Shown here piece after piece: positions 3,812-64,000 of a stretch of 64,000 nt of DNA. Position numbers and translations under genes: made by a program. The notes under the pieces were generated by a model. That model did not search any database, was not told the origin of the DNA, and saw only the letters and a program-made list of their open reading frames with translations. How positions within the stretch are numbered: the stretch's first letter is position 1; each line of letters starts with the position of its first letter. The DNA comes from Neocallimastix sp. 'constans' (lineage: Eukaryota): positions 372,001 through 436,000 of the forward strand of contig JBODTK010000129.1 in NCBI GenBank assembly GCA_050613775.1. Reading direction: 5' to 3'.

Positions 3812-3845
<34 letters not shown>

Positions 3846-6800: not shown

Positions 6801-7237
6801 AATACTATTATTTCCTTTTTTATTTTTAATATTTTTATCTTTATTCTTTTATTTTTAAAAAAGATATAAGAATAAAAATCAACATACTATTTTTTTTTTT
6901 TTTATTGTTTAAAAATATATTAAATTAATTATAAATCATTTTTATTTATTTATTTTTATTTAAAAATTAAATAACATACTATTATTATTATTATAATTAT
7001 TATTATTATTATTATTATTATATTTTTGTTATATTTTTGATGCTCTATTGATATGAACAGTTAAAAAAAATTATTCTATTAAAATTATATGTATATAAAA
7101 GAGAATTAATATTAAATTTAAATTATTAAAAAAAAAATAAAGAAAATTTACATTTTAAATTATAAATTGAAATTAGAAATTTTAATAATAAAACAAAAAA
7201 TAGAAACAGAAAAGAAATTTATTAAAGGCTTTATAAT

Positions 7238-13211: not shown

Positions 13212-13861
13212 TGTTAACTTCAATAAAATTACATCATAAATAAATATAAAATAATTATTAAAAAATGTATTTATAAATATGTATTATGTTAATTAATTAA
13301 TACGTTTATTTTATGTTTATTTTATATTGCAAATATTTTGCGAAACTTGTATATATGTAACAAATGTATTCGGGTGATATATATTCACTATATAATATTA
13401 TGAATGGACTATCCATTTAATTCAGATTAAGAGTCTTATTTAATTTTATTATTAAATCTAATAAAATTTTTTTTAAAAACCAAGTCGTCTCAAGAGACTT
13501 CTTTAGCTAAAGACCAAAGCCATCACAGAAAGTCAAACTTCAACAAGTGGAAGTTTCTTATTTCAAATGCTGCCAAAACTTATGGTATTAAGGAACTTTT
13601 GAAAGCCGATATTATTGGTCATTTAAATAATGAATTTCTTTATATACGTTTTTATAAATGGTAATGATGCAACCAACAGGCACCGAAAACAATAAGAGAA
13701 GAAATCATTAAATTATTTAGAAAATTCAAGAGACTATAGTAATTATAATAATAAAACTACTTTAAAATACGTCAGAAGTGAAGACTACTCTGATAATGTC
13801 AGCAATTATGATGAAAACTTTGATTTTAATTTTGTTTTTGAAGATGCTAGATCTCTAATGT

Positions 13862-13892
<31 letters not shown>

Positions 13893-14790
13893 TAAAATAA
13901 TAAATGTACTGGAGGTTATTCCATATAATAATAAATATACTTATGATTATAATGAAATTAACAATGAATCAATCGATTATATAAATCATAATAAAGTAAT
14001 AACAAATAATGTTCATGGTTTTATGATACAGGTTCAGGCGAGCATGTGACAAATGATAAATCTTTACTTATTGAAAAATTATGTTGTGCAAATGATTCGA
14101 TTAGCCAATTTGAAGAAAATGGGACATATGAATGTTTCATAAATAAACAATTCAATAAGTTTGAAAAAGTTTTATTTTCTAAAAATGTTCACAACAATCT
14201 TATTAGTGATAGAGAACTTGCAAAATCAGGATTTATATCATTAATTGACTCTTCTGATGGGAAAAAAAGCAAGATTAAAATTATGGGATAAGAATAAAAT
14301 TAATTTAGATACTTTCTTATCATCTAAATATAATCAATTTCCTATCAAAACATAAAGTTTCAATACTATAAAAACAATAAGAAATGATAATAATACATAT
14401 AGAATAAATAAGATGATAGAAGCTATGAAATATGGCGTAGAAAATTAGGCCATTTTTAACCGAAGTAATTGACCTAAATACCGAGACTTAACATAATATT
14501 AAAACTCCTCCATGCATTGACTGCAAAATTTCTAATATTAGGAGGGTATCTCACAAAGGCTAAAGAACCCCTGGAAATAAACCATTCAGATATTTTTTGG
14601 CCCATATAATTTATTTATTAATCATAAGAAATACTTCCTTACGATGATGGATTGCTTTTGAAGAAAGTCTGGATATTTACAATTAAACTGAAGGCTGAAG
14701 CTCCAGATGTAATAATAATTTTCTTTACTTACTTAAAAAATTAATTCAGAATTATACAATGAAAATATTTAAATTTGATGAAGGAAAATA
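13212..14790 (+). mobile_element. Degenerate Ty1/copia LTR retrotransposon, 5' part (putative LTR, PBS, protease, integrase)
   Basis: ..TTCA at 13424 followed by PBS GATTAAGAGTCT (13425-13436). Protease motif WFYDTGSGEHVT from 14016. KVLFSKNVHNNLIS. IWRRKLGHF and CIDCK (integrase HHCC) near 14430-14530. PLEI.HSDIFGP and KVWIFTIK (rve core) with frameshifts and stops. LTR start at 13212 (TGTTAA) is a guess. Confidence 0.85.
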
Positions 14791-15518
14791 ATTAAATAAA
14801 AATAAAAATAACTTAACTTAAATATTAATATTAATAATAAGATTATTAATAATTATTTTTATTATCATACGAAAAACTAATATTAATTTATTAATTATAT
14901 AAATAATAATTAATTAATAATTAAAATAATAAAAATTTAGTAGTTATTAATATTTCATTAAAATAGTTGTCTAGTAAAATAGTAATGCGATAATAGAAAT
15001 AATATAATAATGTAATAACATATAATAAGATAATTGGAAGTAATAATAAGATAATTAATAAGAATAATAATATTCATATAATAAAATAATTAATAGTAGT
15101 AATAAACACTAATAAAAATTTAAATTATACTAAATAGAAAATAGTGATAATGATATAATTAAGAGCAATAGTAATAATTAATAATAATATATCAGCTATA
15201 ATAGGAGTACTTATAATTTAATAGTTATAGTAATAATTTATAATAACAAAATAACTACTAATGATTAATGAAAATAATATCTATTATTACCTGGTTATAT
15301 GTCATATACATAATAAAATTATGTGTTCATAAATAAGATATACTCTTGAATTTAAATTAATTTTTAAATACTAAATTATTATATTTATTCTTTTATTTTA
15401 TTTTATTTTATTTTATTATTTATTGTTTGTTTAATTACTAATAGCTAATGCAATTACTTTTATTATGTATTTGAATAATTATTTCTTAATATAAAAAAAT
15501 CTATATAATTTGAAATAT

Positions 15519-16038
15519 TTATTTAATATCTTCTATATCCACAATTTTAATTTTTTTATTATTTCCCTTTTTTGACTGATCAACAACAAGTTGACCACAC
15601 GCTCCTGCAATATCATTTCCTTTACTTTGACGTATCGTAGAAGGAATATTATATTCTTTTAATATTTCTTTAAATTTTAATATATCCTCTAAAAGTGGAC
15701 TTTTATAATCTATATTTGGACTTTCTATTGAATTCCAAGGAATTAAATTCACTGTACATTTTATATTATTTAATAATTCACCTAATTCACGAGCTTCCTT
15801 TTCGGTGTCATTAACTTTATGTAATAATAAATATTCTATAAAAATTGAATTTTTTGTTTTTTCTTGATATTGTTTTATGGTATTCATTAATTTATCTAAT
15901 TTATAAGCTTTTTTTTTTTTTTTTTTTTTTTTAATAAAAATAATATAATTTAAATAATATAGTTGAGATATAAATGAATAAATATTAGAAAAAAAATATT
16001 TTATTATAATAAAAACATAATAATAAACAATAATTAGT

Positions 16039-16080
<42 letters not shown>

Positions 16081-17409: not shown

Positions 17410-18829
17410 TTTTTTAACTATTACTATAGATTAATAATATTATTGAACTAATATAAAATAATTTTTTTTTTTTTTTTGTTTCCAATAATTTTAATAATAA
17501 ATAATAGAATAATATATTATTAATAATTGAATAATATATTTTTAATAATATTAATAAAATTTAATATTATAATATATATTCTTTGAGAAATACAAATTAT
17601 AATACATTATGTATTTTATCTACATTAACATAATACGTATTTTTTATACATTTTATTATATTTAATCAAATAAGCTTTTTGTTTTTCTGATACAAAAAAA
17701 ATAAATATTAAATTATTAATATATAAGATTTTATTGGAATCACGTATTTTAATAATTAAATAAATTTATCTAAATATATTTTTAAAATAATGTACAATAT
17801 ATTTTATATTTTATGCGGCGATCATAGGTTAATGTTAACTAATTTTTTGTAGTAGTTGTTAACTAAAGTTGTTTTTTTTTTCTACCATATATTATTTATT
17901 CATAATTTTCAAATTATATCACAGCTAATAATAAAATATATATATTTTTATTTATTTTACTTTATTTTATTTTATTTTATTTTATAAATCAGATAATTTT
18001 ATTTAAAATATAAAATTTTATTATTTAGAAAATAATTAATTATAATATTATATTATTTTACTTAAAATTTTTTAAAAAATTAAAAAAAAAAAAAACGAAA
18101 AAAACAAAAAAAAAAAAAAACATAAAGCAAAAAAAAAACTTAATTATGAAAATATTTAAAAACATTAATAATAATATATATATATAAATTTTAATATTCA
18201 TTACAATATTTTTCCACTATTAATTAATTAATATTTATTTTTCTAATTTTTTTTTTTTTTTTGAAAATTTGAAAATTTGAAATTATTTTAATTCACTATT
18301 TTTTTTTTAACATGTATATATAGATTTGAATTTCTTAATATAAAGTTAAAAGTAGAAATAAATAAAAACTTTATTTTATAATAAAATGATCTGTTTTAAA
18401 TATTTTTCCTTATTTCAAAATAAAATAAAAATAATAAATAAAGTAAAACAAACTTTATATTTGTAAACACTAAAATCAAAATGTAATATAATATATATAT
18501 ATTTTGTACAATAATATATTATATATATAATAGGATATATATTATTTCATATAATGCTATAAATGAATATATTAAAATTTAATAAAATAATTTCATAATA
18601 AAAATTCCATATCATAGAATTATTATACATGAATGGATTACCATACCCTGATTGGGTTAATCAATAATTTTTTTAAACTTATTGGATTAATAAAGTTTGA
18701 TTGTATTATTAATATATATTATATACTAAAAATTGATTATGGAAAAAAATATATAAACTCATCTTTTATCCTTCTGTTTTAATTCTTTGCTCTATTATTA
18801 TATAATTTATTAATAAAATAGAATTAAAA

Positions 18830-20634
18830 ATGGTTTACAAAGTTGGTTAGTATTAGAGTTACAATAGAAAAGATATAAAAAGAATAATTATATTAAAATG
18901 TTAAAAGTACTTTATTTATATAAAGATTAGAACAGGAAATCAATAGAATAAAATAGTGAGAGTATATGTTCGATGATATAGTTCAATATATAAAGCATTT
19001 AAAATTTAAGGAATAAATTATTATAAATTGATTATTATGATGTTTTTATTAAATATAAATAGATACATACTAAAAATTACGGATATCTCTGAAGAATACA
19101 TATTTAGTTGAAATATTTTAGGCAAAAAATTTTGAAAGAAAAATAATAAAAATAAAACAAAAGTATATATAAAAATATACTTTTGTTTTTATATTAATAA
19201 AATATATATTATTTAATTCATTAAATATACACAATTACTAAATATTTTCAATAAACAATATATAAAGGATATAACTTTACTAATTATTAAAATTTAACAT
19301 ATATATATATATATATTGTTATTATTTTATTTATAATAAATTTAAAATATTATTTAGCTGATATCAATCTTGCCGATTTCGGTCGTAAGGAACTTGACAT
19401 TGCTGAAAATGAAATGCCAGGTCTCATGACTCTTCGTAAGAAGTACGGTCCATCTCAACCACTTAAGGGTGCTCGTATTTGCGGTTGTCTTCACATGACT
19501 ATCCAAACTGCTATGCTTATTGAAACTCTTACTGCTCTTGGTGCTGAAGTCGCCTGGAGTTCCTGTAACATTTTCTCCACCCAAGATCACGCTGCTGCTG
19601 CTATTGCTGCTACTGGTGTTCCAGTTTTTGCTTGGAAGGGTGAAACTGATGAAGAATATATCTGGTGTATTGAACAAACATTATTTGCCTTCAAGGATAA
19701 TAAGCCATTAAACATGATTCTTGATGATGGTGGTGATCTTACTGCTCTCGTTCATGAAAAGCACCCAGAACTTCTTGCTGGTATTAATGGTCTTTCTGAA
19801 GAAACTACCACTGGTGTTCACAAGTTATACAGAATGTTCAATGAAGGTAGACTTAAGATTCCAGCTATTAATGTTAATGATTCTGTTACTAAGAGTAAGT
19901 TCGATAACTTATATGGTTGCCGTGAATCTTTAATTGATGGTATTAAGCGTGCTACTGACGTTATGATCGCTGGTAAGATCTGTGTTGTCGCTGGTTACGG
20001 TGATGTCGGTAAGGGATGTGCTGCTGCTCTTAGAGGTATGGGCGCTCGTGTTCTTATCACTGAAGTTGATCCAATTAACGCTCTTCAAGCTGCTATGGAA
20101 GGTTATGAAGTTACTACTATGGAAGAAGCTTCTTCCCAAGGTAACATCTTTGTTACTACTACTGGTGATTGTGAAATTATTACTGGTAAGCACTTCCCAA
20201 ATATGAAGGATGATGCTATTGTTTGTAATATTGGTCACTTTGATTGTGAAATTGATGTTGCTTGGTTAAAGGCCAATGCTGTTAGTGTTGTCAATGTTAA
20301 GCCACAAGTTGATCGTTTCACTTTATCTAACGGCCGTAGAATTATCCTTCTTGCTGAAGGTCGTCTTGTTAACCTTGGTTGTGCCACTGGTCACCCATCA
20401 TTCGTTATGTCTAACTCTTTCTCTAATCAAGTTCTTGCTCAAATTGCTCTTTGGACCGATATCAAGAGTTACCCACTTGGTGTCCATATGCTTCCAAAGA
20501 AGTTAGATGAAGAAGTTGCCGCTGCTCACTTAGAAAAGTTAGGTGTTAAGCTTACTAAGCTTACTCAACAACAAAGTGATTACCTTGGTATTCCAATTGA
20601 TGGTCCATTCAAGCCAAACCACTACCGTTACTAG
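18830..20634 (+). CDS. SAH1: S-adenosyl-L-homocysteine hydrolase (adenosylhomocysteinase), 2 exons
   Basis: Micro-exon 18830-18845 (MVYKV+G), intron 18846-19357 (GTTAGT..TAG), exon 19358-20634 give [28 protein letters not shown]. Signatures [66 protein letters not shown]. Strongly biased, high-expression codon usage. Confidence 0.98.
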
Positions 20635-23290: not shown

Positions 23291-23683
23291 CATTGAATAT
23301 TTGTGATATTATATTTTAAATTATTTTTGTACGTGATCTCTGACTTATAGTCTCCTCCTCTATTGTTGTTAATATATTTATACAAGTCGATATATATAAA
23401 TATGTATTAAAATAACTATCTTTTTAAGTAATGCATATTGTTAAATTGAGTTTTGCATATTTATGGGGTGGAAATATTTTATCATAGAGTAGATTTCTTT
23501 TTGTATAAATATAGTACATTATTAATAGTATGAGATAATTCTCTTCTATCAATTATTTTATATTTTTATGCGGTTTTTTTTTGCAATCTTGATCATTTTA
23601 AATGTCCAGTTTTATTAGGCTTCCCTTAAATTGACATAATGAGAAACTTTTATCATAATTTAAATGACTTTTGGAATTAATAA

Positions 23684-24510
23684 GTGTGCTACTCTTGTTG
23701 TACAAATTACGAAGATCTATCTTTATTTATTGGTCGAAACAAATTACCTATAACTGACAACTATACTTATCTTGGTATTCCTTTTGATGAATCTTTATCA
23801 TTGAAACCTATACAATCCAAATTAAACAGTAATTTAAATGTCAAGTTAAATTCGTACTTTCGATTTCTTATTAATAAAACTATTCCTCTCCCATTGAAGA
23901 AATATGTTTTAATTTTATTTATTCTTAGTCTTGTTTTATATTATGCACCTCTCTTTGGTTAAAATAAGAGCAGATGCTCTAAAGATCAAAAAAATTATTA
24001 GCAGAGGACTTTGTCGGAGTTATGGATTTAAATCTCACAATTCTTATGTTCGTTTCTATGATATTACTCGTGAATTGAGAATACCCTCCTCTTTCAACTG
24101 TATGTGCTATATCTCAATTACGCTGCTTTAGAAAATGGAAAAACTCATCATGTATTATTAATCATCTCACTAATATTATTCCTACTATGTCACATTACTC
24201 ATGGACTAAAGAATTAAGGACTTTGGATAAGAAATTAAATGGTAATAAAAACAAGTGAAATAAAAAGGTTTTATTGGGAAAGGAATGTCTTCAAACCCTC
24301 AAAAGCTAAGAAAGCAATTATTTACAAGGAGAATGATTTTGGATTTATTTCATAAATCAAAAACTTAACATTTCAATATCCTAAGTATCAATTGGGATTC
24401 TTTTGGATTTTTCGAATTAGGTGTGGCTTTAAATTTGACATTAGTATTTCCATTAAAAGAAAAATAGTCTCAGAAGATTGCCCTAAATGGTGTCCTTGTT
24501 GTGGTGTATA
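23684..24510 (+). mobile_element. Non-LTR retrotransposon (LINE-like) relic: RT C-terminal region and Cys-rich tail
   Basis: LPITDNYTYLGIPFD (RT YLG motif), FILSLVLYYAPLFG, then FWIFRIRCG..CPKWCPCCG at 24400-24505. Broken by frameshifts and stops. Confidence 0.75.
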
Positions 24511-24747: not shown

Positions 24748-26852
24748 TATTAAATATTGTTTTTTTATGTGTTTAATTACATAGCATATTATACAATAAT
24801 ATTAAATGTAAAATATTTCTATTCAATATTATCATACAGTGTAATATTAAATATTATTAATAATGCTAAATTAATATAAAAAAATGATTATAAATAAATG
24901 ATATATTCTTAAATGAATAGGTCTTTCTTAAGAGCAATAAAATAAATAAATAAACACATAATAAAATATAAATATCATTTCTGATTTTAGGTATTATGTT
25001 TTTAACAGATTAAGTGACTCACAGACTCAATAATTCAATAACAAGCATTAATATCAAAATTCAATATATAAAATACTCAACACTCACTAAATATTATAAT
25101 AAAGAAATATTAACAGTTAAATTTAAAATGACTAAACTAGACAATTCAACAACTACAGGAAGTTTCTTCAAAAACTTCAACAAATACAACAAATACAGCA
25201 AAGACAACAGATACATCAAGCTCAACATTGAATGAGGCACCTGTTGAAGTAGAACCTTCAAATATTCAAGCAAATACAATTACTAATTTTTATATTCAAA
25301 ATTTTAAAATTATAAAGGAAAACTTTCACAAATGGTATTCAAATATGAAATTATTCCTTGATTCTGAAGAATTAGGTAATTATATACATTAAAAAATATT
25401 TAAGATAGAAACACCAATAAAAAAACACTTATTGTATGATAGTACCGTCAGGATTATAATATCGAACACCTTCAACAAATATACGAAAATTCTTTTAAAT
25501 AAATAATCGCACAAGTCTATATCTAATGATAAAAGAATTAAAAAAAAAAAAAAAAAAAAAAAAGATTTTCAGAAACAGGCCCATAAAGACTATTTGAAAT
25601 GGAATTAAAGATAAAGAAATTAAAAATTGAAAAAAGATGACTTTAACCTATATTTAGATAATCTTAACTCCTTATTTAGAGTATATAATAATAAGGAAAA
25701 ATTATAAAATAAATCGGAAGTGAATGAAGAAACTATTGTCATAAAAATAGGTGTACTACAGATACCTGCTTTTTTTTTTTTTTTTTTTTTTTTCAACCCA
25801 TCAATTTCACCATAGAATAACTATAGGGGAGAAAAGAAAAATAGTAATAATAAATCAAGAAATAAAAATAAAAATTAAAGTACATCTTTAAGTAAGAAAT
25901 TTAGTATAAGAAACTTCAAATAATATAACCTTAATTATGAAGAACAAAACAATTCAGATTTCATATTTAGATCCATCATTCGACTTCTGCTTAAATATGA
26001 CAACTAGTATTATAGAAGACAATAACAATTTATTAACTCCTAGAAAAATTAAAGCAAATAAATGCTGAAATAGGAAAAGATGAAAATTATGATAAAAAAG
26101 ATAATAACAAAGAATCATGAATCATTGATAGTAGAACAAGAATAAACTTATCAAAAAATACAAAATCACAATCAAACGTTTAAAAAGTTTCTAATAGATA
26201 AATTATATATCCAATACAATCCGATAGAATTTACAAGAAGGATAAGTACAAAGGAATATGTAAAAATAATTTTTCTATTAGAGAAGTGTTTTACGCTATA
26301 AATATATAAAAAAAATTTAATTTTTCACTTATTATCTCTGTAAAAAAAGGGCTTTAAATTAGTAATGGAAACATGTAGCAAAAAAAAAAAAAAAAAAACT
26401 ACTCTAAATATTTAAAAAACAATAAATTAATTAAAATAAAATTAAATTAATGCTCATTGGTTCTAACTTAATGATGGCAGATCCATTAAACCAAAAGTAT
26501 TTCTGGATCCAGGCTCAAATACTATTTGGATTTCATCATGAAAATATTGAAAAATGCCAAAATTAGGGAAAACGTTAAATATTGCAGTTATGTGCTTAAT
26601 TACATCGTACATTATATTATTTAATGCAAAATATTTCTATTAGGTAGGATTATGCAGTGTAATGTTAAATGTTATCAATAATGTTAGACTATTTTTTTTT
26701 TTTTTTTAAAAAAAAAATAAAAATAAAAAAAAAAAAAAAAAAAGATTATAAATAACATGTAATGATAAATTCTTAAATGAATGGGTCTTTCTTAAATAAT
26801 AAAATAAATAAAATAAACACGTAATAAAATATAAAATTTAAATATCATTTGA
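24748..26852 (+). mobile_element. Internally deleted Ty1/copia element with paired diverged LTRs
   Basis: Direct repeats ~24748-25007 and ~26573-26852 (shared TTAATTACAT, AAAATATTTCTATT, TTCTTAAATGAAT(A/G)GGTCTTTCTTAA). LTR ends AACA, then a PBS variant GATTAAGTGACTCA (25008-25021). Gag NFHKWYSNMKLFLDSEEL at 25321. Decayed protease *IIDS near 26120. RNase H tail MMADPL near 26470. PPT-like AGGGAAAA precedes the 3' LTR. Confidence 0.85.
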
Positions 26853-33533: not shown

Positions 33534-35092
33534 CCATAAATTTTTTTAATAATGATTATATAAATATAATATATATATTCATAAATAAAAATCAAATATA
33601 TGTTATAAAAAAAAAAAAAAAAAAAAAAATACACATATATATTTATATATTATATTATATTATTAATTTGATAATCATAAATTTTAATTTTTGTTGGTTA
33701 TATTGTGTCAGGAATGACCAAAAGAAATTAAATGTTTAAATATGATATTAAAAAAAAAGTTTAATACCAAAATCATTTTTTTTTTTTTTTTTTTTTCAAT
33801 AAAAAGAGCAGGGAATTAGGATATATATCTTTTTTTAAATAAGTTTTATTTCATTTATTTAATTTTTTTTTATTATATATTTATTTTTTATTATCTGTTT
33901 AAATATAATTTATTTTAAATTCAATTATTAAAGTTTTAACATAATTTCTTTCTATTATATATATATATTATTATTATTATTATTATTTTATCTTTATTTT
34001 AATGATATTTATAGATTAATTATTTAACTTTTCAAAAGTAGTTAATATATTAAAAATTTTTATTATACTAGTTTTATATTAATATATATGAGATTTTACT
34101 AAAATATGCAATGAAAGTGAAGGAAGTACATTCATAAAAAATAAAGAAAATACCTTTTTTATGAGTTTCTCAATTCTTATTAGACAGTGTAACTTTTATT
34201 ATAGTCATAGAAGGAAGTTTATAAATAATAAATAATATAATTAATTCATTGCATATATATATATATATTTTTTTTTATTATTTATTTTTAAATAAAGTAG
34301 AAAGAAACTATTTAAATATTTGATAAACTAATTAATGAAAATTCTTTTTCTGTTATATATTATGATTGATATTATCTCTTTCTGTTTAATGATTCTATTT
34401 TTTTTTTTTTTTATTTTTTTTTTTTTATTGTTTAAAAGAAAAAAAAATAATAAGTGAAAAAAAATGTAATATTATTAAATAAATAAAATATATAATAAAT
34501 TGAAGAGTTTAGGTTAACAGAACGACATAATACTTTATGTAAGAGATAAAAAAAAAATAATATATGTAAAATATTTCTACTACTACAACTACTACTAATA
34601 ATAGTAATAATAATAAAATTGTTATTTGTTATGTAAAAGTAAAAAAAAAAAATTATTTTCTTATTTAATAAATTAAAAAAATATACTTTATAATTATACC
34701 TATTTTTTTAATTTAATGCATGAAATTATTAATTAAACAAAACAAATTTACTATATATATAGTAATGATTCATTAAATATATATATATATATATATATTT
34801 TATTAATTATTTTTTATAATATTAAATAAATTTACTTTTTTTAAATAATAATAACAATTATAAGTATATTTTTTTTTAATAGGTTATATAATAATTTTTT
34901 TATTTGCATGATATATATAATTTTTTTTAAATAGTTTATATTTTTTTTTTTTTTTTCTAGAAATATATTATATTTAAATGGATAGATTAAAATAAATATG
35001 TTCATGTAATATGTAATGCGTTATAATTATTATTTAATATTGTCTAATATTTAATTATTAACTAATTATTATTCTATAGTATAAAATTAAAA

Positions 35093-36181
35093 TTAATTAG
35101 AATTATCAATACTTGGATCATAATAGAAATTTAAATTATCACACATGGGTTCCTCATATTTTATCATATCTTTACGTGGAAGAATTCCAAGAACTTGTGC
35201 CCATAAATTTAATGCTTTCTTTTGATATTGGTCAATATATTGCTTAACTTTTAGCTTTAAAGCATCAAAATCTGTATTTTTAATAATCTCTGGTAATTCT
35301 TCCCAACTATCAAAATAAACAAAGAGACCTTCAAATTCTTTATTATACCATTCAACATAATTAGTTAAACCATCAGGTATATCTTGTAAATGCTTTTCAG
35401 CAAAGTAATAACTTCCTTCTTTAATTAATTCTCTGAATAATTTTTCAGAGGGTACAATCATTGCTACACCGTATCTGAAATTTTCCATCATTTTCATAAT
35501 AGAAACTTGATAAGGTAACATCAACACTGCTTTATAAGTTGCAAGAACTAAAGGACCACCATATCTGTGGGGTAATTGTGCTAATGGAATATTAAGTTCT
35601 TTCAATTTCGGAATAGCAAGTTTTTTATCTTGGTTTGTATGTTCAATCACTGCTATTTCTTCATGCGTTTCATTATAAGTTTTTCCCATTACTTCTGGAG
35701 GAGCAAATCCAAGTGGTCTAATTAAATAATAATTAGGAATAAATACACCCTTTATACAAGCATGGAATACTTCATAAGGATTATTTTCCACAACAGTTAA
35801 ATCTTTATTTTCTACAACAGCTTTTCCTAATTTTTCGTAATAATCCACTTTATTTTCTTCCTTTACAAATATATCAAATCTTTAATTAATATTAATATAA
35901 ATAAATATATATTAATATATAATAATAATGATGATAATAAAAAAAAGAAAGTCCAATTATTTTTTTTTTTTATATTATTTTTATAAAGTATATTTACTGA
36001 TAAATCATACCTATTTGTTATCTCTAAAACTACTTTTGCACTACAAGGATTAGTAAAATATATATAAGAATCAGGTATAATATCACTTATAACAATATAA
36101 TCATATTGGGAACACTTTAATTTAACAAAAGATTTACATTTGTCTTCTTCAAAACAATCTGGCCTATTTTCAAAAGAATAC

Positions 36182-36222
<41 letters not shown>

Positions 36223-36701
36223 GTTGTTGTTGTTGTTGTTTTCATTATAATTATTATTATTATTAATGTTTTCATTATAATTATTATTATTATTATTATT
36301 ATTATTATTTTATTATTATTATTATTATAATAATAGTAATAATTCAATTAGTCCTTGTTCTAACAAAAAAATTTTTTTTTTTTTTCAACATTTAATATTA
36401 AATATATATATATATAGTATATACATATAGTACTTACTGAAGGCTTATATAAAGATACATTGAAACTTAAAAGTTCGGCAATAATTTTAAAATTTGAAAT
36501 AGTACCGTCATGTCTTGAAACATATAAAATATTTTTATTGAATTCAATTTTTTTTGTTACAGTTTTTTTATTTACTTCACTGACGATTTTGCTTTTATTT
36601 ATTTCAAAAAAATTAGAAATATTAAGTAATGTAATAAAGATTAATGTACATAATAATATTATAATTGAAAGTTTGAATATAAGATTAGTATTTTTATGCA
36701 T
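35093..36701 (-). CDS. Putative glycosyltransferase-like type II membrane protein, paralog 1 (3 exons, 406 aa)
   Basis: Exons 36701-36438, 36180-36011 and 35879-35093 are in frame. Short cytosolic N-tail plus one TM helix. SRHDGTISN motif. C-terminal YKAVLMLPYQVSIMKMMENFRYGVAMIVPS resembles a GT-B donor-binding segment (inference). Confidence 0.8.
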
Positions 36702-37624
36702 TTATATTATTATTATTACTTTAAATATGCTTTTTTTTGTATCTGTATCTGTTTATTTATTTATTTATTTATTTATTATTATTTTTTAAAAAATAATATA
36801 TTTAATTTTCTAATTTAAAGTATCCTTTGAAAATTATAAAATAGTGAAAAAAAATAAATTTGTATATAATATATTACTAAAACATTATATAAATTTAAAT
36901 AATTTAAAAAAAATATTAATGATAATAGAGTAAATAATGTTATTTTTAACTAAAATTCAAGCTTTAATTCTCAAAAATTAAATATTTTAATTTTTTATAA
37001 TAATTTAAAGAAACAATTAATGAAATAAAATAAACTTAAAACAAAAAATTATAAAATATATTAAATTTTTAAAATATTATGAATAACTTTTTTAATTTTT
37101 ACCATACAATTAACCAAAAAAATAAAAATAAAAAAAAAAAAAATTTTTTTTATTAAATATTTTCATTTAATTAAAAATAAAAATTTCATATATTAATATA
37201 TATTTTAATATATACAGTATATTTCATATGAAAAGCTTTTCTTTATCTATTCAATATATAAAAATATAAAAATTATTATATTTCCCATTAAATGAAAAAA
37301 TTTAATATATTTATATTTAATATATATATTTATATATATTTTTAATTATATTACATTTGTAATCTCTAAGTTATTATAAAAAAATTATTATGAAAAAAAA
37401 AAAAAAAGGTTTATATATAAATATTCTTTTTATATAAATTTTAGACAATTCCATTATAATATTATAACAATATTAATATCATTATATATAATAAAATTAT
37501 TTGTAAACTATATTACTTATTATAAATAACTTTCACGACAAGAGCATATCATTTTTTTATAGATACAAATATTGTAAATATTTTGTAATAATAATAAAAA
37601 TTTTATTATTAATTAAATATTTCG

Positions 37625-39688: not shown

Positions 39689-39874
39689 AAATAAATAAAT
39701 AAGATTAAAATCAAAAATTGTTTTTGGTTTATTTCATTATAAAGAAATTTTTTTTTTTTTTTTTTTTTTTTAAATAAAAAAAATAATAAATTAAATATTA
39801 TTACGGATAAAAAATATAAATTAATTTTTTTTTAAACAATCTATAAATTTTCTAATAATTAATGATGAATATAA

Positions 39875-41402
39875 TTAATTTGATTTATAATAAAAATCTT
39901 TGTTATCACAAAGAGGATCCTTATTTTTAATCATATTTTTACGTGGAATAACATCTAACACCTGTGCCCATAAATTTAATGCTTTCTTTTGATATTGGTC
40001 AATATATTGCTTAACTTTTAGCTTTAAAGCATCAAAATCTGTATTTTTAATAATCTCTGGTAATTCTTCCCAACTATCAAAATAAACAAAGAGACCTTCA
40101 AATTCTTTATTATACCATTCAACATAATTAGTTAAACCATCAGGTATATCTTGTAAATGCTTTTCAGCAAAGTAATAACTTCCTTCTTTAATTAATTCTC
40201 TGAATAATTTTTCAGAGGGTACAATCATTGCTACACCGTATCTGAAATTTTCCATCATTTTCATAATAGAAACTTGATAAGGTAACATCAACACTGCTTT
40301 ATAAGTTGCAAGAACTAAAGGACCTCCATATCTGTGGGGTAATTGTGCTAATGGAATATTAAGTTCTTTCAATTTCGGAATAGCAAGTTTTTTATCTTGT
40401 TCTGTATGTTCAATCACTGCTATTTCTTCATGCGTTTCATCGTAAGTTTTTCCCATTACTTCTGGAGGAGCAAATCCAAGTGGTCTAATTAAATAATAAT
40501 TAGGAATAAATACACCCTTTATACAAGCATGGAATACTTCATAAGGATTATTTTCTACAACAGTTAAATCTTTATTTTCTACAACAGCTTTTCCTAATTT
40601 TTCGTAATAATCCACTTTATTTTCTTCCTTTACAAATATATCAAATCTTTAATTAATATTAATATAAATAAATATATATATTAATATATAATAATAGTGA
40701 TGATAATAAAAAAAAAAAAAGTCCAATTTATTTTTTTTATAATATTTTTATAAAACATGTTTATTGATAAATCATACCTATTTGTTATCTCTAAAACTAC
40801 TTTTGCACTACAAGGATTAGTAAAATATATATAAGAATCAGGTATAATATCACTTATAACAATATAATCGTATTGGGAACATATTAATTCAACAAAAGAT
40901 TGACATTTATCTTTTTCAAAACAATATGGTCTTTTTTCAAAGCCATACTTTTTATTATTAATTACCATTAACAACATGGTCATAGTCATTATCATTATCA
41001 ATATCATTATAATAATTATTATTATAAATATAATTAGTCTTTCTTTATTAAATTAATTTAATAAAGAAATTATTTTTCTTTATTTTTGTTATATTATTTA
41101 TTCTATATAAATTTTAACTTTAAAAATATATTACTTACAGGAGGTCTCATCAACGTAACATTGAAACTTAAACGTTGAGCAATATTTACAAAGTTTGAAA
41201 TAGTGCCATCATGCCTTGAAACATATAAAATACTTCTATTGAATTCTGATTTTCTGATTATAGTATTTTCGCTTGTTGTACTGATAACATTATTACCATG
41301 TATTTCAATAAAATTGGAATAATTAAATAAGGTAATATAAAAAAATAATAATATTGATATTAAAATAATAAATTTGTATTTAATATCAGTTTTTACTTGC
41401 AT
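39875..41402 (-). CDS. Putative glycosyltransferase-like type II membrane protein, paralog 2 (3 exons, 401 aa)
   Basis: Exons 41402-41139, 40947-40778 and 40646-39875. Exon 1 and 2 lengths (264, 170 nt) and phases match paralog 1. Confidence 0.8.
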
Positions 41403-41659
41403 TTTATTTAATTATAATTATTTTTATTATTGTTATTATTGTTATTACTGTTATTATTGTTATTATTGTTATTATTGTTATTATTTTAAATATACTTTCT
41501 GTTCCTTTTTCTGTTTATTTATTTTAACAAATAATATGTTTATTTATACATATAACAAAAAAAAAATACTAAAATAAATATGGTAAAGTAATAATTATTT
41601 AAAGTTGAGATTTAAGCTTTAATTCTATTCAAAAAAAAAAAAAAAAAAAAAAAATAAAA

Positions 41660-45868: not shown

Positions 45869-46171
45869 CAATATATAATGGATAAGATGTATGAATGTAT
45901 GAATATAGATTTGTAAATAATTATAATCTTTTATATTTTAAAATTAATTTATGTATATATTATTATAAAAAAAATTTATAATAATATATTATTTAAAAAT
46001 ATATATGATTATTTAAATGTCTTTATAAATTTTATTATTATCATTATTACTATTAATGTATGTTTTTGTTAAATAATTATTAAAAATAGTATTAATTGAA
46101 TGATTGTAATTAATTTATTAATTTTTTTTTTCTTTCTTTCTTTCTTTCTTTCCTTCTTAAGGACTATAAAA

Positions 46172-47306
46172 TTAATTATTATTAATATAATTTGGGTCAT
46201 AATAAAACTCATTATCACACATAGGATTCTTATGTTTAATCATATCTTTACGTGGCGAAATATCTAGAACTTGTGCCCATAAATTCAATGCTTTCTTTTG
46301 ATATTGTTCAATATATTTCTTAACTTTCTGCTTCAAAGCATCAAAATTTGTTTTTTTAATAATCTCTGGTAATTCTTCCCAACTATCAAAATAAACAAAG
46401 AGACCCTTAAATTCCTTATTATACCATTCAACATAATTTGTAAAACCATCAGGTATATCTTGTAAATCTTTTTCAGCAAATTCATAACTCTCTTCTTGAA
46501 TTAATTCTCTGAATAATTTTTCAGAGGGTACAATCATTGCTACACCGTATCTGAAATTTTCCATCATTTTCATAATAGAAACTTGATAAGGTAACATCAA
46601 CACTGCTTTATAAGTTGCAAGAACTAAAGGACCTCCATATCTGTGGGGTAATTGTGCTAATGGAATATTAAGTTCTTTCAATTTTGGAATGGCAAGTTTT
46701 TTATCTTGATCTGTATGTTCAATTACTGCTATTTCTTCATGCGTTTCATTATAAGTTTTTCCCATTACTTCTGGAGGAGCAAATCCAAGTGGTCTAATTA
46801 AATAATAATTAGGAATAAATACACCCTTTTTACAAGCATGGAATACTTCATAAGGATTATTCTCTACAACGGTTAAATTTTTATTTTCTATAACTGCTCT
46901 TCCTAATTGCTCATAATAATCCACTTCATTTTCTTCCTTTACAAATATATCAAATCTTTAATTTATATATTATTATATAAATGAATATTAATAAATATTA
47001 ATAATACAACCAAAAATAATTAAACTAAAAAATATTAATAATAAAAATAATCCTTTTCTTTTATATATATTTATATATTATTAATAAACCCTTACCTATT
47101 TGTTATTTCTAAAATAAGTTTTGCATTACAAGGATTAGTAAAATATATGTAGGAATCAGGTATAATGTCACTTACGACAATGTAATCATATTTAGAGCAT
47201 ATCTTTTCGACAAAAGATTTACATTTATCTTCTTCAAAACAAAATGGTCTTTCTTCAAAATCATACTACTTATTTAATTATTTATTTATTATCATTATAA
47301 ATATTA

Positions 47307-47359
<53 letters not shown>

Positions 47360-47736
47360 AAATGTAATTTATCTTTATTTTAATAATAATAATAAAAAAA
47401 AAAAAAAAAAAAAAAAATTCATATTATTTATTTTATATAATAAATTTTTAATTATAAAAATATATTACTAACAGAAGGTTCCATCGTATTAACATTGAAA
47501 CTTAAAAGATCAGCAATATTTACAAAATTTGAAATAGTACCATCATGCCTTGAAATATAAAGAATTTCTTTTTTGACTATTGCTTTTTTAGCCACATTTT
47601 TTCTATCTACTCTATCTAAAATTATGGTTTTATTTATTTCAGCAAAAGTGGAATTATAAAGTAAGGCAATATATAAAATTGAAAATAATAAAATAATAAT
47701 TAAAAGTTTGTAAATAATTTGGGATTTCCTGCTCAT
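46172..47736 (-). CDS. Putative glycosyltransferase-like type II membrane protein, paralog 3 (3 exons, 405 aa)
   Basis: Exons 47736-47473, 47265-47096 and 46955-46172. Same exon structure and motifs as paralogs 1 and 2. Confidence 0.8.
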
Positions 47737-47945
47737 TTTACGTTATTAATAATATGAATATATATATATACTTTTTTTTGTTTGTTTGTTTGTTTGTTTA
47801 TATTTATTTATTTTCGAAGAAAAATATATATATATATAAATTATATAAAATATATATAATAGTATAATTTAAAAAATTAGTTTAATTAAATTTCAAACAT
47901 ATATATTCATGAATAAAATATAAAATTCTAGAAAGCAATAAATAA

Positions 47946-48015
<70 letters not shown>

Positions 48016-48575: not shown

Positions 48576-48687
48576 TTATTTAAATATTATTTATTACTTG
48601 TTATTTATTACTTATTACTTATTATTAATATATATTTGAAATCTAATATTAATAAAATTTGATAAAAATTAACTTTTTTTTTTTTTT

Positions 48688-48770
48688 TATATATATATAA
48701 TAAATATTCAAAAATTTATGTTTGATTTTATTTTGAATACCACTATTTTCTTTGTATAAAAAAAAAATAA

Positions 48771-48804
<34 letters not shown>

Positions 48805-48920
48805 TAGTCGAAAGTAAATAAATAATAATAAAAATAATTAAAGTTAATTTTGAAAAAGATGGATATTTTTATATGAATTAAAGTTTTATTTCAATTATAA
48901 ATAATAAAAAATGTGTATGT

Positions 48921-48963
<43 letters not shown>

Positions 48964-49274
48964 TTAAAGTTAACTTACAATTATTATTTCAATATAAATA
49001 TTCCTGTTTAATATTTCTATTTGTTTTTTAAATAAAAAAAAATAAAATATTTCTTAACACATTTCATAGGTTAAATATATTTTACTTTTATATGTATATA
49101 TAAAAACTTTAGATGTATAATTATTGTTTTGTATGTTATTTCGTAATTGTATTTATCATATCATATCAAATCATATTTTAAAAATTACATTTATATATAT
49201 ATAATAAATATTCAAAAATTTATGTTTGATTTTATTTTGAATACCACTATTTTCTTTGTATAAAAAAAAAATAA

Positions 49275-49308
<34 letters not shown>

Positions 49309-49424
49309 TAGTCGAAAGTAAATAAATAATAATAAAAATAATTAAAGTTAATTTTGAAAAAGATGGATATTTTTATATGAATTAAAGTTTTATTTCAATT
49401 ATAAATAATAAAAAATGTGTATGT

Positions 49425-49467
<43 letters not shown>

Positions 49468-49695
49468 TTAAAGTTAACTTACAATTATTATTTCAATATA
49501 AATATTCCTGTTTAATATTTCTATTTGTTTTTTAAATAAAAAAAAATAAAATATTTCTTAACACATTTCATAGGTTAAATATATTTTACTTTTATATGTA
49601 TATATAAAAACTTTAGATGTATAATTATTGTTTTGTATGTTATTTCGTAATTGTATTTATCATATCATATCAAATCATATTTTAAAAATTACATT
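48688..49695. repeat. Apparently perfect 504-bp tandem duplication
   Basis: 48688-49191 is repeated at 49192-49695, including equal homopolymer lengths. Confidence 0.92.
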
Positions 49696-51274: not shown

Positions 51275-52292
51275 AAACTTTATTATATAAATATGTTACT
51301 ACGATAATGTTACATATATAAAAGAATAATATTGAATAATTCGTTATTAACATAAAACTTATTACTTCTATTGTGTTTTTATCACTTTGGAGTTTGACTT
51401 CCCTAACAGATTAAGAGTCTCAAACAAAAAGAGACTCATTTTATTAATTAAATATTATATAACGTTTTAATAATATATATATTTTAATTTTAATTTTTTA
51501 ACTTCTAAATATTTTTATTTGATGTTTCAAAGAATGGCTAAAAAAAAAAAAAAACTAGAAGATCTACTAGTGGATACATATCTTTTTTTTTGATTTTTCC
51601 TTTGGAAATAGTCCTATATCATCGGAAAATTTAATTTACAGAAAAACTGTTAGCACTATCTTACGACCGAAGCTGAGTATGTTAGAATTACCGAATATGT
51701 TAAATAAGGTATTTGGTTTAAAAATCTTATTTAAAGAAATGTTTAATAAAGAAATAAAATTTTAAAAAAAAAAAAAATTATGGTTGATAAATAAAGCGGG
51801 CATAGTAAATTGCTCAGGATACATTCTCTAAAGGAAGATGTACGCCTATAGATATACGATGCTATACAAATTTATTAATACTGAAAGTATGTTAGTTTGT
51901 CCTTTAACTAAAAGCATTTCAGGAGTCCAAATAACCAAATTTTCAAATTTACAAATTTAATTTTTCAAAAAGAATAATAATGATTAAAATAAAATAAATA
52001 TTATTTATATATTGAACAATTGTTATATAATACTTTATATAGAGGTGAATATTTGGATTAAGCAAAAAATTAAACATTGTACATTAAAGTATAAGGTATT
52101 ATAAATATTTTATAATGTTTTACTATGTAATAATTTGTATGTAACTTTATTTTATAAAATTTAAGAACAAAAGTATTATAATAATAAGATAATATTATTT
52201 AAATAAAAGAATAATATTGAATAAATATTTATTAGCATTAAATTACTTATTTCTATTATATATTTATCACTTTGGAGTTTGCCTCCATAACA
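51275..52292 (+). mobile_element. Miniature Ty1/copia derivative: LTR-PBS-RNase H remnant-PPT-LTR
   Basis: LTR 3' parts match (AAAGAATAATATTGAATAA..TTTATCACTTTGGAGTTTG..TAACA), ending at 51408 and 52292. Perfect PBS GATTAAGAGTCTCA at 51409-51422. Interior reads RRSTSGY, GNSPIS, TTEAEYV, GIWFKNL, INTESMLVCPLTKSISG (copia RNase H) with frameshifts. Purine tract AGAGGTGAA at 52041. The 5' LTR start is uncertain. Confidence 0.88.
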
Positions 52293-56820: not shown

Positions 56821-57169
56821 GAATTGATTATATACATAAAAATTTTTTTTGATAAAGTCCATTTAATTTTATAATATATTAAAATATATTACAATATATT
56901 ATTAGTTTGAATAGATAATTCATTGAAAATTTATAAATAGTTGAAATTTTTCTTTAAAAAAAAAAAAAAAAACAATTTTATATTCATTATTAAATATATA
57001 ACTATTTTTCTTAAAAAAAACAAAAAACATAAATAATATATTTTTTTTATAAAGTTATAAATCAAATTAAATCAATTGTTAAGATTTTTTAAAAAAAAAT
57101 TTTTTTATATATAAAAGTTTGAAATTAAAAGTTTATATAATATAATAAATTAAAATAAAATAAAAAAAA

Positions 57170-57568
57170 ATGTCTACCGCCACTACTGCTACTCATCATT
57201 ATCGTCATGCTATTCCAACCATGATGAGACTTAAAAGAGAACCTTCCTGTAAAAATATGGTTTTCAAACCACAGACCCCATTTCCAAATGCTGAAATTGT
57301 TCTTCATAAAATGAAATGTGAAGGAAATATGCATCCAAGTCCACAGGAACTTGCTAATGCCTTATTTACTGAATGTAATAAATGGTTAAAAGCGAATGGC
57401 TTTAAAGAATTTATTCCAAGTCAAAATCTTGGATGGACTTTAAAAGATGGAGTAATTTCCCGTCCAGGAGCTAAAATTCGTTTTGATGCTAAATCTATTT
57501 CAAGGCAACAATCTGCTCATAGAATTTTATCCGAAACTATTAAACATGATGATAACCAAATGAATTAA
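57170..57568 (+). CDS. Conserved small basic protein of unknown function, paralog A (132 aa)
   Basis: AAAATG start context, host-like codon usage, and a near-identical protein at 61145 with many synonymous differences. Confidence 0.9.
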   Translation: MSTATTATHHYRHAIPTMMRLKREPSCKNMVFKPQTPFPNAEIVLHKMKCEGNMHPSPQELANALFTECNKWLKANGFKEFIPSQNLGWTLKDGVISRPGAKIRFDAKSISRQQSAHRILSETIKHDDNQMN

Positions 57569-58663
57569 AAAAAAAAAAAAAAAAAAGGAATGTTTAAATA
57601 TTCCTTAAGAAAAAGGAGGAATAAATTGGTTACGATTAAAGAGAAATAGAATGAAAGTTAAAAAAAAAAAGGAAAAAAATAAAACTCTGAAAGGTTTTTC
57701 CTTAATTACTAAAATATATTTGAAGAATGGAATATATTATTTCTATAATAATATTATTATAAAAATGATTCAATTACTGTAAAAATTGAATAGATTTATA
57801 TTGTATTTATTTATGAATAATTATTATTATTAAATAATTATTCATTAATTTTAATCAAATTGTAAATATAATTAATTTAAAAAAAATTTTTTTTTATTTT
57901 TCTTTATTTTTTGTAAATATTTAATTTAATAATAGAAAAAAGAATATAGAGTTTAGAAAAAAAAAATCTGTTAAATATAATAAAGTTTAAAAAGTATTTA
58001 AAAAAAAAATTTTTTTTTTCATAGTTTTCTTTTTATTTTGTGTGTGTGTGAGTGGTATGATTGAATATAGAATCTATATCTTTTTTTTTTTTATAGTTTT
58101 TTTTTAATGATTATTACAATATTTAAAAAAAGTTTTTAATAATGAAGAGGAAAAAAATAATTTTTTTTTTTTTTTTAGATATTTTATTATAAAATTTTCA
58201 TTATTTTATTAAAATTAATACATGAAATAATGAATAAATTTCTCTTCGATTAAAAAGATTAATTATTTATTAAAACTAATTATTATTATTATTATTATTA
58301 TTTTATTATGTATATGATATTGATATTAATAATATATTAATATATCTGATTTATGGTTAAAACTTGTATATTGTAATAACTACAAATTCCTTTTTTTTTT
58401 TTTTTTTTTTTAAGAATTTTTACCCTTATGAATTTATATTCTCTAAATATAAAATATAAAATATATCATAATAAAACTAGTGAACATTTTTGAAATTTAA
58501 AAAAATTTGAATAATTTTTAGATATATTGGAAATGGTAGTAATTTTTGGAATTAAAATATTTATATTTAAAGACAACAACTATTTATTATGGATCATAAG
58601 TTTTTTATATTTTATCATTAAGAATTATCATATGAATTAATGTTAAATTATTTAGATAAAATA

Positions 58664-60827: not shown

Positions 60828-61144
60828 ATATAATAATAAATAAAATAAAAATTAATTGTAAACATTTATTGTTATTAAACTAAATTATATATACCTATTT
60901 TATTTTAATTTACTTTGTTTTTTATTTAATTTTTTTTTTTTTTTTATAATTTATAGAAAAATTTTATTAAAATATTTTTAAAAAAATTTACTTGATTAAA
61001 AATTTTATTAATTTTTTTTTAAAAAAAAAAAAAAATTAACTTGATTAAAAAAATTGTATTAATCTTCTATTCATAATTTTTCTTTTTGTTCTCTCAGTAA
61101 TAATAATAATAATTATAATAATATATTTATTAAATATATTAAAA

Positions 61145-61534
61145 ATGTCTAGTAGTACTACTCGTCAATACCGTCATGCTATTCCAACCATGATGCGTCT
61201 TAAAAGAGAACCTTCTTGTAAAAATATGGTTTTTAAACCACAGACTCCATTTCCAAATGCTGAATTGGTTCTTAAAAAGATGAAGAGTGAAGGTAATTTG
61301 AATCCTAGTGCTCAAGATCTTGCTAATGCTTTATTCACTGAAAGTAATAAATGGTTAAAAGCGAATGGCTATAAAGAATTTATTCCAAGTCAAAATCTTG
61401 GATGGACTTTAAAAGATGGGGTAGTTTCTCGTCCTGGAGCTAAAGTTCATTTTGATGCTAAATCCATTTCAAGACAACAATCCTCACAAAGAATTTTAAC
61501 TGAAACCATTAAACATAATAGTGTCCAAATATAA
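61145..61534 (+). CDS. Conserved small basic protein of unknown function, paralog B (129 aa)
   Basis: Shares YRHAIPTMMRLKREPSCKNMVFKPQTPFPNAE, KWLKANG and EFIPSQNLGWTLKDGV with paralog A. Confidence 0.9.
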   Translation: MSSSTTRQYRHAIPTMMRLKREPSCKNMVFKPQTPFPNAELVLKKMKSEGNLNPSAQDLANALFTESNKWLKANGYKEFIPSQNLGWTLKDGVVSRPGAKVHFDAKSISRQQSSQRILTETIKHNSVQI

Positions 61535-61837
61535 ATTTAAGAAATATTAATAAAATGAAAAGAAAAGAAAATAAAAAAAAAATATCTATATATATATTAT
61601 AATTATATATGTATATATATATCTTAATTTAAAATTAAAAATTACTTATTTATATACTAGAATATATGTATTTAATACCCTTTTTTTTCTTTTCATTTTA
61701 TTATTAATATCCATTAAATTAATATGATTTATGATTTATACCCTTCTTTTTATTTCTTTTTCTTTTTTTTATAATGATTTAAGAATCTTTTTTTTTTTTT
61801 TATTTTATTTCATATACAATTGTAAAGTGTTGAATTA

Positions 61838-63790: not shown

Positions 63791-64000
63791 AACAGATTAA
63801 GAGTCTCATTGACTCATTATAATTTTACTTCGTTGAAAAATCATTCAATTTCAATTTTTAAATAAGTAAATAAAAAAAAAAAAAAAATTAAAATATTTAA
63901 AATTCAAAATGAGTAAAAATACTTTAAAACGATCAACAGAAAATGCTACTTCTAGTACCATTACTACTATGGATAACAATATTCCTCAAATCAAAAGATT
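63791..64000 (+). mobile_element. 5' end of a probable Ty1/copia element (LTR end, PBS, start of putative gag ORF); continues beyond the window
   Basis: AACA (63791-63794), perfect PBS GATTAAGAGTCTCA (63795-63808), then ATG at 63909 opening MSKNTLKRSTENATSSTITTMDNNIPQIKR.. to the window end. The LTR start could not be located. Confidence 0.65.

What the first reader, a model, noticed from the sequence alone, without database searches (positions are those of the whole stretch)
51405..51422. Copia retrotransposons apparently primed by a tRNA-Lys(CUU) 5' half
Seen: GATTAAGAGTCTCA directly follows a CA end at 51409 and 63795 (perfect), 13425 (12/12, then TA) and 25008 (2 mismatches). Three of these elements carry copia coding relics, two have paired LTRs, and the four upstream sequences are unrelated. 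Known: the motif is the reverse complement of TGAGA-CTCTTAA-TC, positions 27-40 of a common eukaryotic tRNA-Lys(CUU), and it lacks the usual TGG of a CCA-end PBS. Anticodon-arm priming is known for Drosophila copia and yeast Ty5 (tRNA-iMet) and Candida Tca2 (tRNA-Arg). Inference: several families here use a tRNA-Lys half ending near nt 40, or 2'-OH priming at that position. I do not know of a described Lys(CUU) case, so novelty needs a literature check.
Basis: partly seen in the sequence, partly recalled or inferred. Interest (0 to 1): 0.88.

Follow-up and report, generated by a model that had tools for sequence, protein, structure and literature searches.

The report
Lysine half-tRNA primer in gut-fungal copia
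Copia-type jumping genes of anaerobic gut fungi carry, right after their left repeat, a nearly invariant 14-base site that mirrors the anticodon arm of a lysine tRNA, so they likely start copying from a cut half of that tRNA: a known trick with a tRNA not found described for it.

Summary
The 14-mer follows CA at four window sites (two perfect, one G-U-compatible change, one decayed); these are broken Ty1/copia copies of an anaerobic gut fungus. A search by integrase, blind to the motif, gave 80 loci. Of 16 AT-rich relatives, 13 carry the motif on the first base after the LTR (12 perfect); the other three lack the 5' LTR. None of the 64 other loci has it, and 43 have the usual TGG site. Carriers span one RT clade down to 41% identity. 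Conservation stops sharply at both ends and equals nt 27-40 of real tRNA-Lys(CUU) genes, the register of hemivirus half-tRNA priming. The host tRNA gene and the primer itself were not seen. Anticodon-arm priming is known for iMet, Arg, Ile, Tyr and Asn/Asp; ten literature searches found no Lys(CUU) case, and this scan noted a Lys(UUU) case on other DNA. Extras: a leader hairpin is predicted to cover the site in most families, and six junctions end the LTR in TA. Verdict: new variant of a known kind.

The parts
51409..51422 (+). Primer-binding site, perfect 14-mer, element 3
   Evidence: directly after LTR end TAACA
51290..51408 (+). Surviving 3' part of the 5' LTR of element 3
   Evidence: 95 of 118 identical to 52175-52292; 0 of 400 controls
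51431..51437 (+). Leader arm predicted to pair with 51415-51421 (7-bp hairpin over the PBS)
   Evidence: opening cost 10 kcal/mol, shuffle p 0.004
51554..51951 (+). Broken copia RNase H relic; the rest of gag-pol is deleted
52041..52292 (+). PPT-like tract (52041-52049) and 3' LTR of element 3 ending TAACA
   Evidence: the LTR start is inferred from the PPT
63795..63808 (+). Primer-binding site, perfect 14-mer, element 4 (after TTTTAACA); fold-back arm at 63811-63815; ATG at 63909, cut by the window end
   Evidence: copia identity not shown by protein
13425..13438 (+). Primer-binding site of element 1, C13T variant (G-U pair with tRNA G28)
   Evidence: same variant in L015; family member L006 is perfect
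13255..13424 (+). Part of the 5' LTR of element 1
   Evidence: 13255-13413 is 74% identical to the L006 LTR
13470..14808 (+). Broken gag, protease and integrase of element 1; 3'-truncated, no 3' LTR found
   Evidence: 80% nt to L006; PF22936
25008..25021 (+). Decayed primer-binding site of element 2 (2 mismatches)
   Evidence: duplex -10.0 vs -19.8 kcal/mol
24748..25007 (+). 5' LTR of element 2
   Evidence: 205 of 243 identical to the 3' LTR
25100..26560 (+). Decayed, deleted gag-pol relic of element 2, weakly like P0055
   Evidence: E 3e-4 and 1e-4
26565..26850 (+). PPT-like tract and 3' LTR of element 2 (starts 26573; its 3' end is lost)

Best explanation
The 14-mer sits on the first base after the 5' LTR throughout a clade of Ty1/copia retrotransposons of anaerobic gut fungi and is the exact complement of nt 27-40 of tRNA-Lys(CUU) genes, so it is very likely the primer-binding site, and minus-strand DNA synthesis likely starts from the 3'-OH of nt 40 of a 5' half of host tRNA-Lys(CUU). 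Shown: position, zero gap, clade-wide invariance, sharp boundaries, register. Inferred: after a cut at 40/41 the half keeps only two anticodon-stem pairs and opens easily; nt 27-40 pair with the element RNA while the D-arm stays folded; RT adds the complement of the last LTR base first. Predicted: before annealing, a short leader arm folds back on the site in most families and is displaced by the stronger tRNA duplex. The four window copies are dead, deleted remnants.
For: Protein-first scan: 13 of 16 AT-rich loci carry the motif, 12 perfect; the three without it do not reach a 5' LTR; 0 of 64 other loci have it and 43 of 64 have TGGTATCAGAGC within 1 mismatch. In 7 permuted contigs the order is RNase H stop, PPT, TG..LTR of 242-307 nt..CA or TA, motif, gag ATG; the ATG lies 19-228 nt after the motif start in all 11 distinct junctions. 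Full-length carriers have gag-PR-IN-RT order. RT tree: the AT-rich elements form one branch (100/99) with two subclades, both carrying the motif; RT identity between carriers goes down to 41% and most LTR pairs are unalignable. Across 15 junctions, 11 of 14 positions are invariant; position +15 and position -3 vary. Five tRNA-Lys(CTT) genes in 26 viral loci hold the arm; it is gene nt 27-40 in L087 and L107. The only repeated variant, C13T, keeps a G-U pair (-17.6 vs -19.8 kcal/mol). Hemiviruses prime from nt 40 (PMC1181622, passages). The window's SAHH gene uses AAG in 26 of 26 Lys codons, which suggests an abundant Lys(CUU) tRNA; 2 AAG-matching tRNA genes are reported in Anaeromyces robustus (PMC6883316 Table S3).
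Against: The host tRNA-Lys(CUU) sequence was not seen (no genome; none in the window or the 16 AT-rich loci); the matching genes are from unrelated viral contigs. The same Table S3 lists 0 tRNA genes for both AAG and AAA in its second species, which I read as a failure of annotation but which gives no support. No primer, small RNA or cDNA end was observed; all runs offered are contigs. No extended pairing with the tRNA 5' part (Fisher p 0.12-0.22, non-host tRNAs). The 25008 site has two true mismatches. The 13 loci collapse to 11 distinct junctions and about 9 families of one clade, so they are not independent origins.
Confidence: 0.72

Rival explanations
1. Same site and same tRNA, but no pre-cut host half: the element RNA invades the anticodon arm of intact tRNA-Lys(CUU), and RT primes from an internal 2'-OH at nt 40 or after a cut made inside the particle.
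For: Sequence cannot tell this from the best explanation. The 14-bp duplex is strong (-19.8 kcal/mol) and covers the whole 5' strand of the stem plus the loop.
Against: For Drosophila copia the primer is reported as a 5' tRNA half (PMC10275265 passage citing Kikuchi 1986) and for hemiviruses as the 3'-OH of nt 40.
Confidence: 0.14
2. The site binds another RNA with the same 14 bases (an unknown small RNA or a tRNA-Lys-derived repeat), not the cytoplasmic tRNA.
For: Host tRNA not seen; published tRNA counts for Lys are low or zero.
Against: Both boundaries coincide with tRNA landmarks (nt 27, start of the stem; nt 40, the known priming point); the complement reads as a canonical anticodon arm with U33 and A37-A38.
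Confidence: 0.07
3. The motif is a cis element of the element RNA or DNA itself (self-priming as in Tf1, snap-back priming from the leader hairpin, or a protein-binding site), and the tRNA match is incidental.
For: A leader arm is predicted to fold on the motif in most families; GACTCA-like words follow it at three window sites.
Against: Longest exact complement in 10 LTRs is 5-6 nt, so Tf1-type priming fails. The hairpin arm differs in register between families and is absent in L009 and L015 while the motif stays fixed, as expected if the fixed partner is external.
Confidence: 0.05
4. Chance or assembly artefact.
For: At 3 mismatches the window count (7) is no more than chance (4.8).
Against: 0 of 100 shuffles at <=1 mismatch; expected 5e-4 exact hits in the 16 AT-rich loci; the 13425 site is reproduced without a difference in contigs of runs X9 and X14.
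Confidence: 0.01

Closest known systems
Hemivirus-type priming: Drosophila copia, 1731, yeast Ty5, Volvox Osser (PMC1181622, passages)
   Same: Ty1/copia element; site complementary to the anticodon arm, ending at tRNA nt 40; no TGG.
   Different: The primer is tRNA-iMet there and Lys(CUU) here; the primer was shown biochemically for copia, not here; kinship to these elements was not tested.
[quoted passage not shown]
   Same: Fungal copia using a non-initiator tRNA with an NNU anticodon, internal region.
   Different: Different anticodon; gamma has extensive complementarity, whereas no extension beyond nt 27 was found here (non-host tRNAs).
Rust-fungal Copia and Helenus TRIMs (Kojima 2024, PMC10886601, section 3.6 read)
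   Same: Fungal copia primed at tRNA anticodon loops, with repeated primer switches (iMet, Tyr, Ile, Asn or Asp).
   Different: Lys appears there only as a 3'-end primer of animal families; here one primer site is fixed over the whole sampled clade.
Plant Bianca (1/2 tRNA-Ile) and Osser, Bryco, Gymco-II (1/2 tRNA-Met) (Neumann 2019, PMC6317226, passages)
   Same: Lineage-wide half-tRNA site in Ty1/copia.
   Different: Other tRNAs and hosts; tRNA-Lys is listed there only as a complete-tRNA primer.

Membership tests
Ty1/copia (Pseudoviridae) | gag-protease-integrase-RT(RVT_2)-RNase H order | tested here: met
   L007, L008, L020, L083; window copies keep only parts
Ty1/copia (Pseudoviridae) | Paired LTRs with PPT before the 3' LTR | tested here: met
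   Two window elements; PPT|TG in 7 relatives
Ty1/copia (Pseudoviridae) | LTR termini TG...CA | tested here: inconclusive
   CA in 9 of 15 junctions, TA in 6 of 15
Ty1/copia (Pseudoviridae) | Target-site duplication | not testable with these tools
   Outer LTR ends are decayed in the window; relatives are collapsed or cut contigs
Hemivirus-type half-tRNA priming | Site directly after the 5' LTR, complementary to an anticodon arm ending at nt 40 | tested here: met
   (against non-host tRNA-Lys(CTT) genes)
Hemivirus-type half-tRNA priming | Host encodes the matching tRNA | not testable with these tools
   No genome; only counts in PMC6883316 Table S3
Hemivirus-type half-tRNA priming | A 5' tRNA half is found attached to minus-strand DNA | not testable with these tools
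   Needs particles or raw small-RNA reads; only contigs offered
Genus Hemivirus (Ty5, copia, 1731, Osser) | Primer is the initiator tRNA-Met half, as in the named members | tested here: not met
   The site reads anticodon CUU; not filed in the genus
Genus Hemivirus (Ty5, copia, 1731, Osser) | RT groups with the named members | not tested
   No named reference RT came from any call; tree has unnamed outgroups
Full-tRNA (TGG) primed copia | Site begins TGG and matches a tRNA 3' end | tested here: not met
   0 of 16 AT-rich loci vs 43 of 64 others for the iMet 12-mer; all 13 readable junctions begin GATT
Tf1/sushi self-priming | About 11 nt in the LTR complementary to the site | tested here: not met
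   Longest exact complement 5-6 nt in 10 of 10 LTRs
Helenus TRIM (for element 3) | tRNA-like sequence in the LTR, no coding remnant | tested here: not met
   No tRNA gene in the window; RNase H relic present

The most novel reading that the evidence does not exclude
The whole copia clade of anaerobic gut fungi primes on tRNA-Lys(CUU) nt 27-40, and its RNA leader carries a tRNA-mimicking arm that clamps the primer site shut until the tRNA displaces it: a conserved switch between translation and reverse transcription, in which the element RNA itself opens intact tRNA-Lys and sets the cut or 2'-OH start at nt 40. With iMet, Arg(UCU), Ile(AAU) and Asn(GUU), it would point to t6A37-type anticodon arms as the preferred substrate of the still unidentified primer-making step (Tyr is an exception).
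Probability: 0.2. Interest if true: 0.7.

Novelty: new variant of a known kind. Interest (0 to 1): 0.42.

Why it matters
How half-tRNA primers are made is still open (my knowledge). A deep clade fixed on one abundant elongator tRNA, with sharp 27-40 boundaries, gives a clean natural test case and widens the primer list to Lys(CUU). In practice, PBS finders that look only at tRNA 3' ends, and LTR finders that require TG...CA, will miss or mis-trim many copia elements of these AT-rich, repeat-rich genomes; the 14-mer is a ready marker for their 5' ends. The mechanism itself is known, so the surprise for a specialist is moderate.

Tried and rejected
Host tRNA: no genome; ARAGORN found none in the window and only an odd tRNA-like piece in L006 among 21 loci; Rfam gave 0 hits in 17 sources; genome G001 behind L112 has no perfect match. 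Viral contigs: no protein relatives; 5 motif hits at 37-54% GC treated as chance and left out; 21 of 26 loci have no tRNA gene over the match. L112 starts inside pol and L011, L013, L016 lack the 5' LTR: uninformative. Element 2: no Pfam or database homolog and no hit of my gag HMM. No 3' LTR for element 1. Extended pairing of the leader with the tRNA D-arm: not significant. Self-priming from the LTR: rejected. The first LTR control included self-overlaps and was redone. The first hairpin metric was weak (2 of 11 sites p<0.05); the second was chosen afterwards. Contigs were laid only on element 1, so other copies of elements 2-4 in the host remain unexamined; the RNA run there does not show transcription. 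An AP-1/Gcn4-like reading of the downstream GACTCA (motif recalled) was dropped: most relatives lack it. Literature searches without a Lys anticodon-arm case; Ke et al. 1999 was not held. Subscription papers, Repbase entries and the figures and supplements of PMC10886601 and PMC6317226 were not seen and could hold a Lys case.

Full report
Setting. The window is 10-24% GC with intron-broken fungal genes. The copia homologs include one labelled Orpsp1_1 and the runs that hold the stretch are mostly animal faeces, so I read the host as an anaerobic gut fungus (Neocallimastigomycota; inference). No whole genome is held.

Observation. The motif is present as described at 13425, 25008, 51409 and 63795, each directly after CA. 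Three hits at <=1 mismatch against 0.01 expected. Element 1 (13425) is a 3'-truncated copia with gag, protease and integrase relics, 80% identical to locus L006, whose site is perfect. Contigs of runs X9 and X14 reproduce its junction without a difference; in run X1 contigs identical to the window have depth about 30 and a family contig about 490-510, which suggests roughly 16 close copies (depth is a rough guide). Element 3 (51409) is LTR, site, RNase H relic, PPT-like tract, LTR: an internal-deletion derivative. Element 2 (25008) has paired LTRs and a weak gag-pol likeness to P0055. Element 4 (63795) is cut by the window end and its copia nature is not shown by protein.

Independent test. 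I collected relatives by protein, aligned 18 and scanned metagenome contigs with an integrase motif, blind to the DNA motif: 308 stretches, 248 confirmed, best 80 kept. Sixteen loci have GC <=0.31; I drew this line after seeing the motif scan, but the RT tree supports it: 11 RT rows from these loci plus P0006, P0009 and P0012 form one branch (100/99) among 52 rows. Thirteen of the 16 carry the motif upstream of gag on the coding strand, 12 perfect and one (L015) with the same C13T as window 13425; L011, L013 and L016 do not reach a 5' LTR. None of the other 64 loci has it at <=1 mismatch of 14, while 43 of 64 have the TGG-type iMet site (motif recalled) and 0 of 16 AT-rich loci do. The 13 loci are 11 distinct junctions and about 9 families. 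In 7 permuted contigs the LTR is bracketed by PPT|TG and by the motif, is 242-307 nt long, often has terminal inverted repeats, and the motif starts with no gap. Both RT subclades carry it; RT identity among carriers is 41-86%. A quick integrase tree puts P0055, the relative of element 2, in the same clade as a third branch (SH-aLRT 95).

What it matches. Over 15 junctions (11 relatives, 4 window) 11 of the 14 positions are invariant; the exceptions are the two decayed bases of 25008 and C13T twice; conservation ends at +15. A scan for the reverse complement with the predicted stem completion gave 26 viral loci, 5 of which are ARAGORN tRNA-Lys(CTT) genes over the match; the 14-mer is gene nt 27-40 in L087 and L107, and 25-38 in L098, which has a shorter D-loop. 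So the site covers the 5' strand of the anticodon stem, the loop and nt 39-40, and its first base pairs with nt 40, from which hemiviruses are said to prime (PMC1181622, passages). C13T gives G-U with G28 and keeps all 14 pairs. These are not host tRNAs. Indirect host evidence: 26 of 26 Lys codons in the window's SAHH gene are AAG, against 4 of 43 in the M36 protease gene; PMC6883316 Table S3 (rows seen) lists 2 AAG-matching tRNA genes in A. robustus but 0 Lys tRNA genes of either kind in its second species, so published annotation is incomplete and neither confirms nor excludes the arm.

Leader hairpin. In most families the 20 nt after the site can fold back on it, in different registers. With expected paired bases as the measure, 2 of 11 sites reach p<0.05 (Fisher 0.003 for 20 nt, 0.02 for 30 nt). 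With the cost of opening the site, a measure chosen afterwards, 6 of 11 do (Fisher 2e-7; 5 of 11 and 4e-6 for 30 nt), against 0 of 11 for the upstream control. Left out of these counts: 13425 and 25008 (decayed), L012 and L059 (close to L007 and L020). L009 and L015 show no signal. Shuffles keep base composition only, the elements are related, and the idea came from the same data, so this is a prediction. A fixed site with a variable fold-back arm argues for an external fixed partner. Pairing of the leader with the tRNA 5' part was not significant, and the LTRs hold no self-primer.

Mechanism. Shown: position, invariance, register, absence of TGG. Inferred from hemivirus biology: a 5' half of tRNA-Lys(CUU) ending at nt 40 anneals by nt 27-40 and RT starts on the last LTR base (0.72). 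Priming on the intact tRNA by 2'-OH or an in-particle cut cannot be excluded by sequence (0.14). tRNAs with NNU anticodons carry t6A37 (PMC10275265, passage); iMet, Arg(UCU), Ile(AAU), Asn(GUU) and now Lys(CUU) all fit, Tyr(GUA) does not; this is a lead only.

Known systems. Half-tRNA sites are reported for Met and Ile in plants (PMC6317226, passages), Arg(UCU) and iMet in Candida (PMC4139406, passages), and iMet, Tyr, Ile and Asn or Asp in rust-fungal Copia and Helenus (PMC10886601, passages and section 3.6). PMC7175516 and PMC6875170 (passages) added nothing. Ten searches of the open library showed no Lys anticodon-arm primer and no study of gut-fungal copia primer sites; subscription papers, Repbase and unread figures and supplements could hold one. 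Earlier notes of this scan report Lys(UUU), Asn, Tyr and iMet cases on other genomes, unchecked by me; none for this genome or sequence. The elements work like hemiviruses and are Ty1/copia members; I do not file them in the genus Hemivirus, since the primer differs and kinship was not tested.

Verdict. Real, clade-wide, well supported by sequence; a new primer tRNA for a known mechanism, with a predicted site-covering hairpin and frequent TA-ended LTRs as extras. Interest 0.42; new variant of a known kind.

Noticed in passing
L007:341, L008:216, L009:2006, L010:1483, L012:3929, L015:425: The LTR ends in TA, not CA, in 6 of 11 distinct relative junctions while its 5' end is TG where seen; those placed by RT lie in one subclade, whose member L006 ends in CA. 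A non-canonical U5 end for the integrase.
   Followed up: partly
L006:4597-4671: A 75-nt tRNA-like sequence with a 4-base anticodon loop and a CCA end lies just after the T-rich tail of a non-LTR element (endonuclease + RVT_1 ORF 326-4543); possibly a SINE head.
   Followed up: partly
window 23664-24505: Broken relic of the same non-LTR family as the L006 ORF (tblastn E 4e-27).
   Followed up: partly
L016, L020, L045, L059, L082, L083: In this subclade gag and pol lie in separate overlapping frames, whereas L007 and L008 have one ORF; a possible frameshift, unusual for copia by recall.
   Followed up: no
L112 (genome G001): A gut-fungal-type copia contig sits inside an archaeal MAG, likely a binning error.
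   Followed up: partly
window 35088-36927, 39857-41494, 46167-47980 (- strand): Three tandem copies, 79-84% identical, of an intron-bearing gene with an N-terminal membrane segment and no confident Pfam family.
   Followed up: no
window 57142-57584 and 61118-61555: Two 84% identical short ORFs of about 130 aa without a credible Pfam family.
   Followed up: no
window 48686-49695: Perfect 506-bp tandem duplication; recent event or assembly artefact.
   Followed up: no
window 7226-9418, 15519-17430, 19291-20634: Ordinary host genes: M36 fungalysin protease (Pfam), an RlmN-like radical-SAM gene and S-adenosylhomocysteine hydrolase (both named from the translation by recall).
   Followed up: no
PMC6883316 Table S3: Zero Lys tRNA genes are listed for one gut fungus, which hints at tRNA genes that standard scanning misses in this group.
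   Followed up: no
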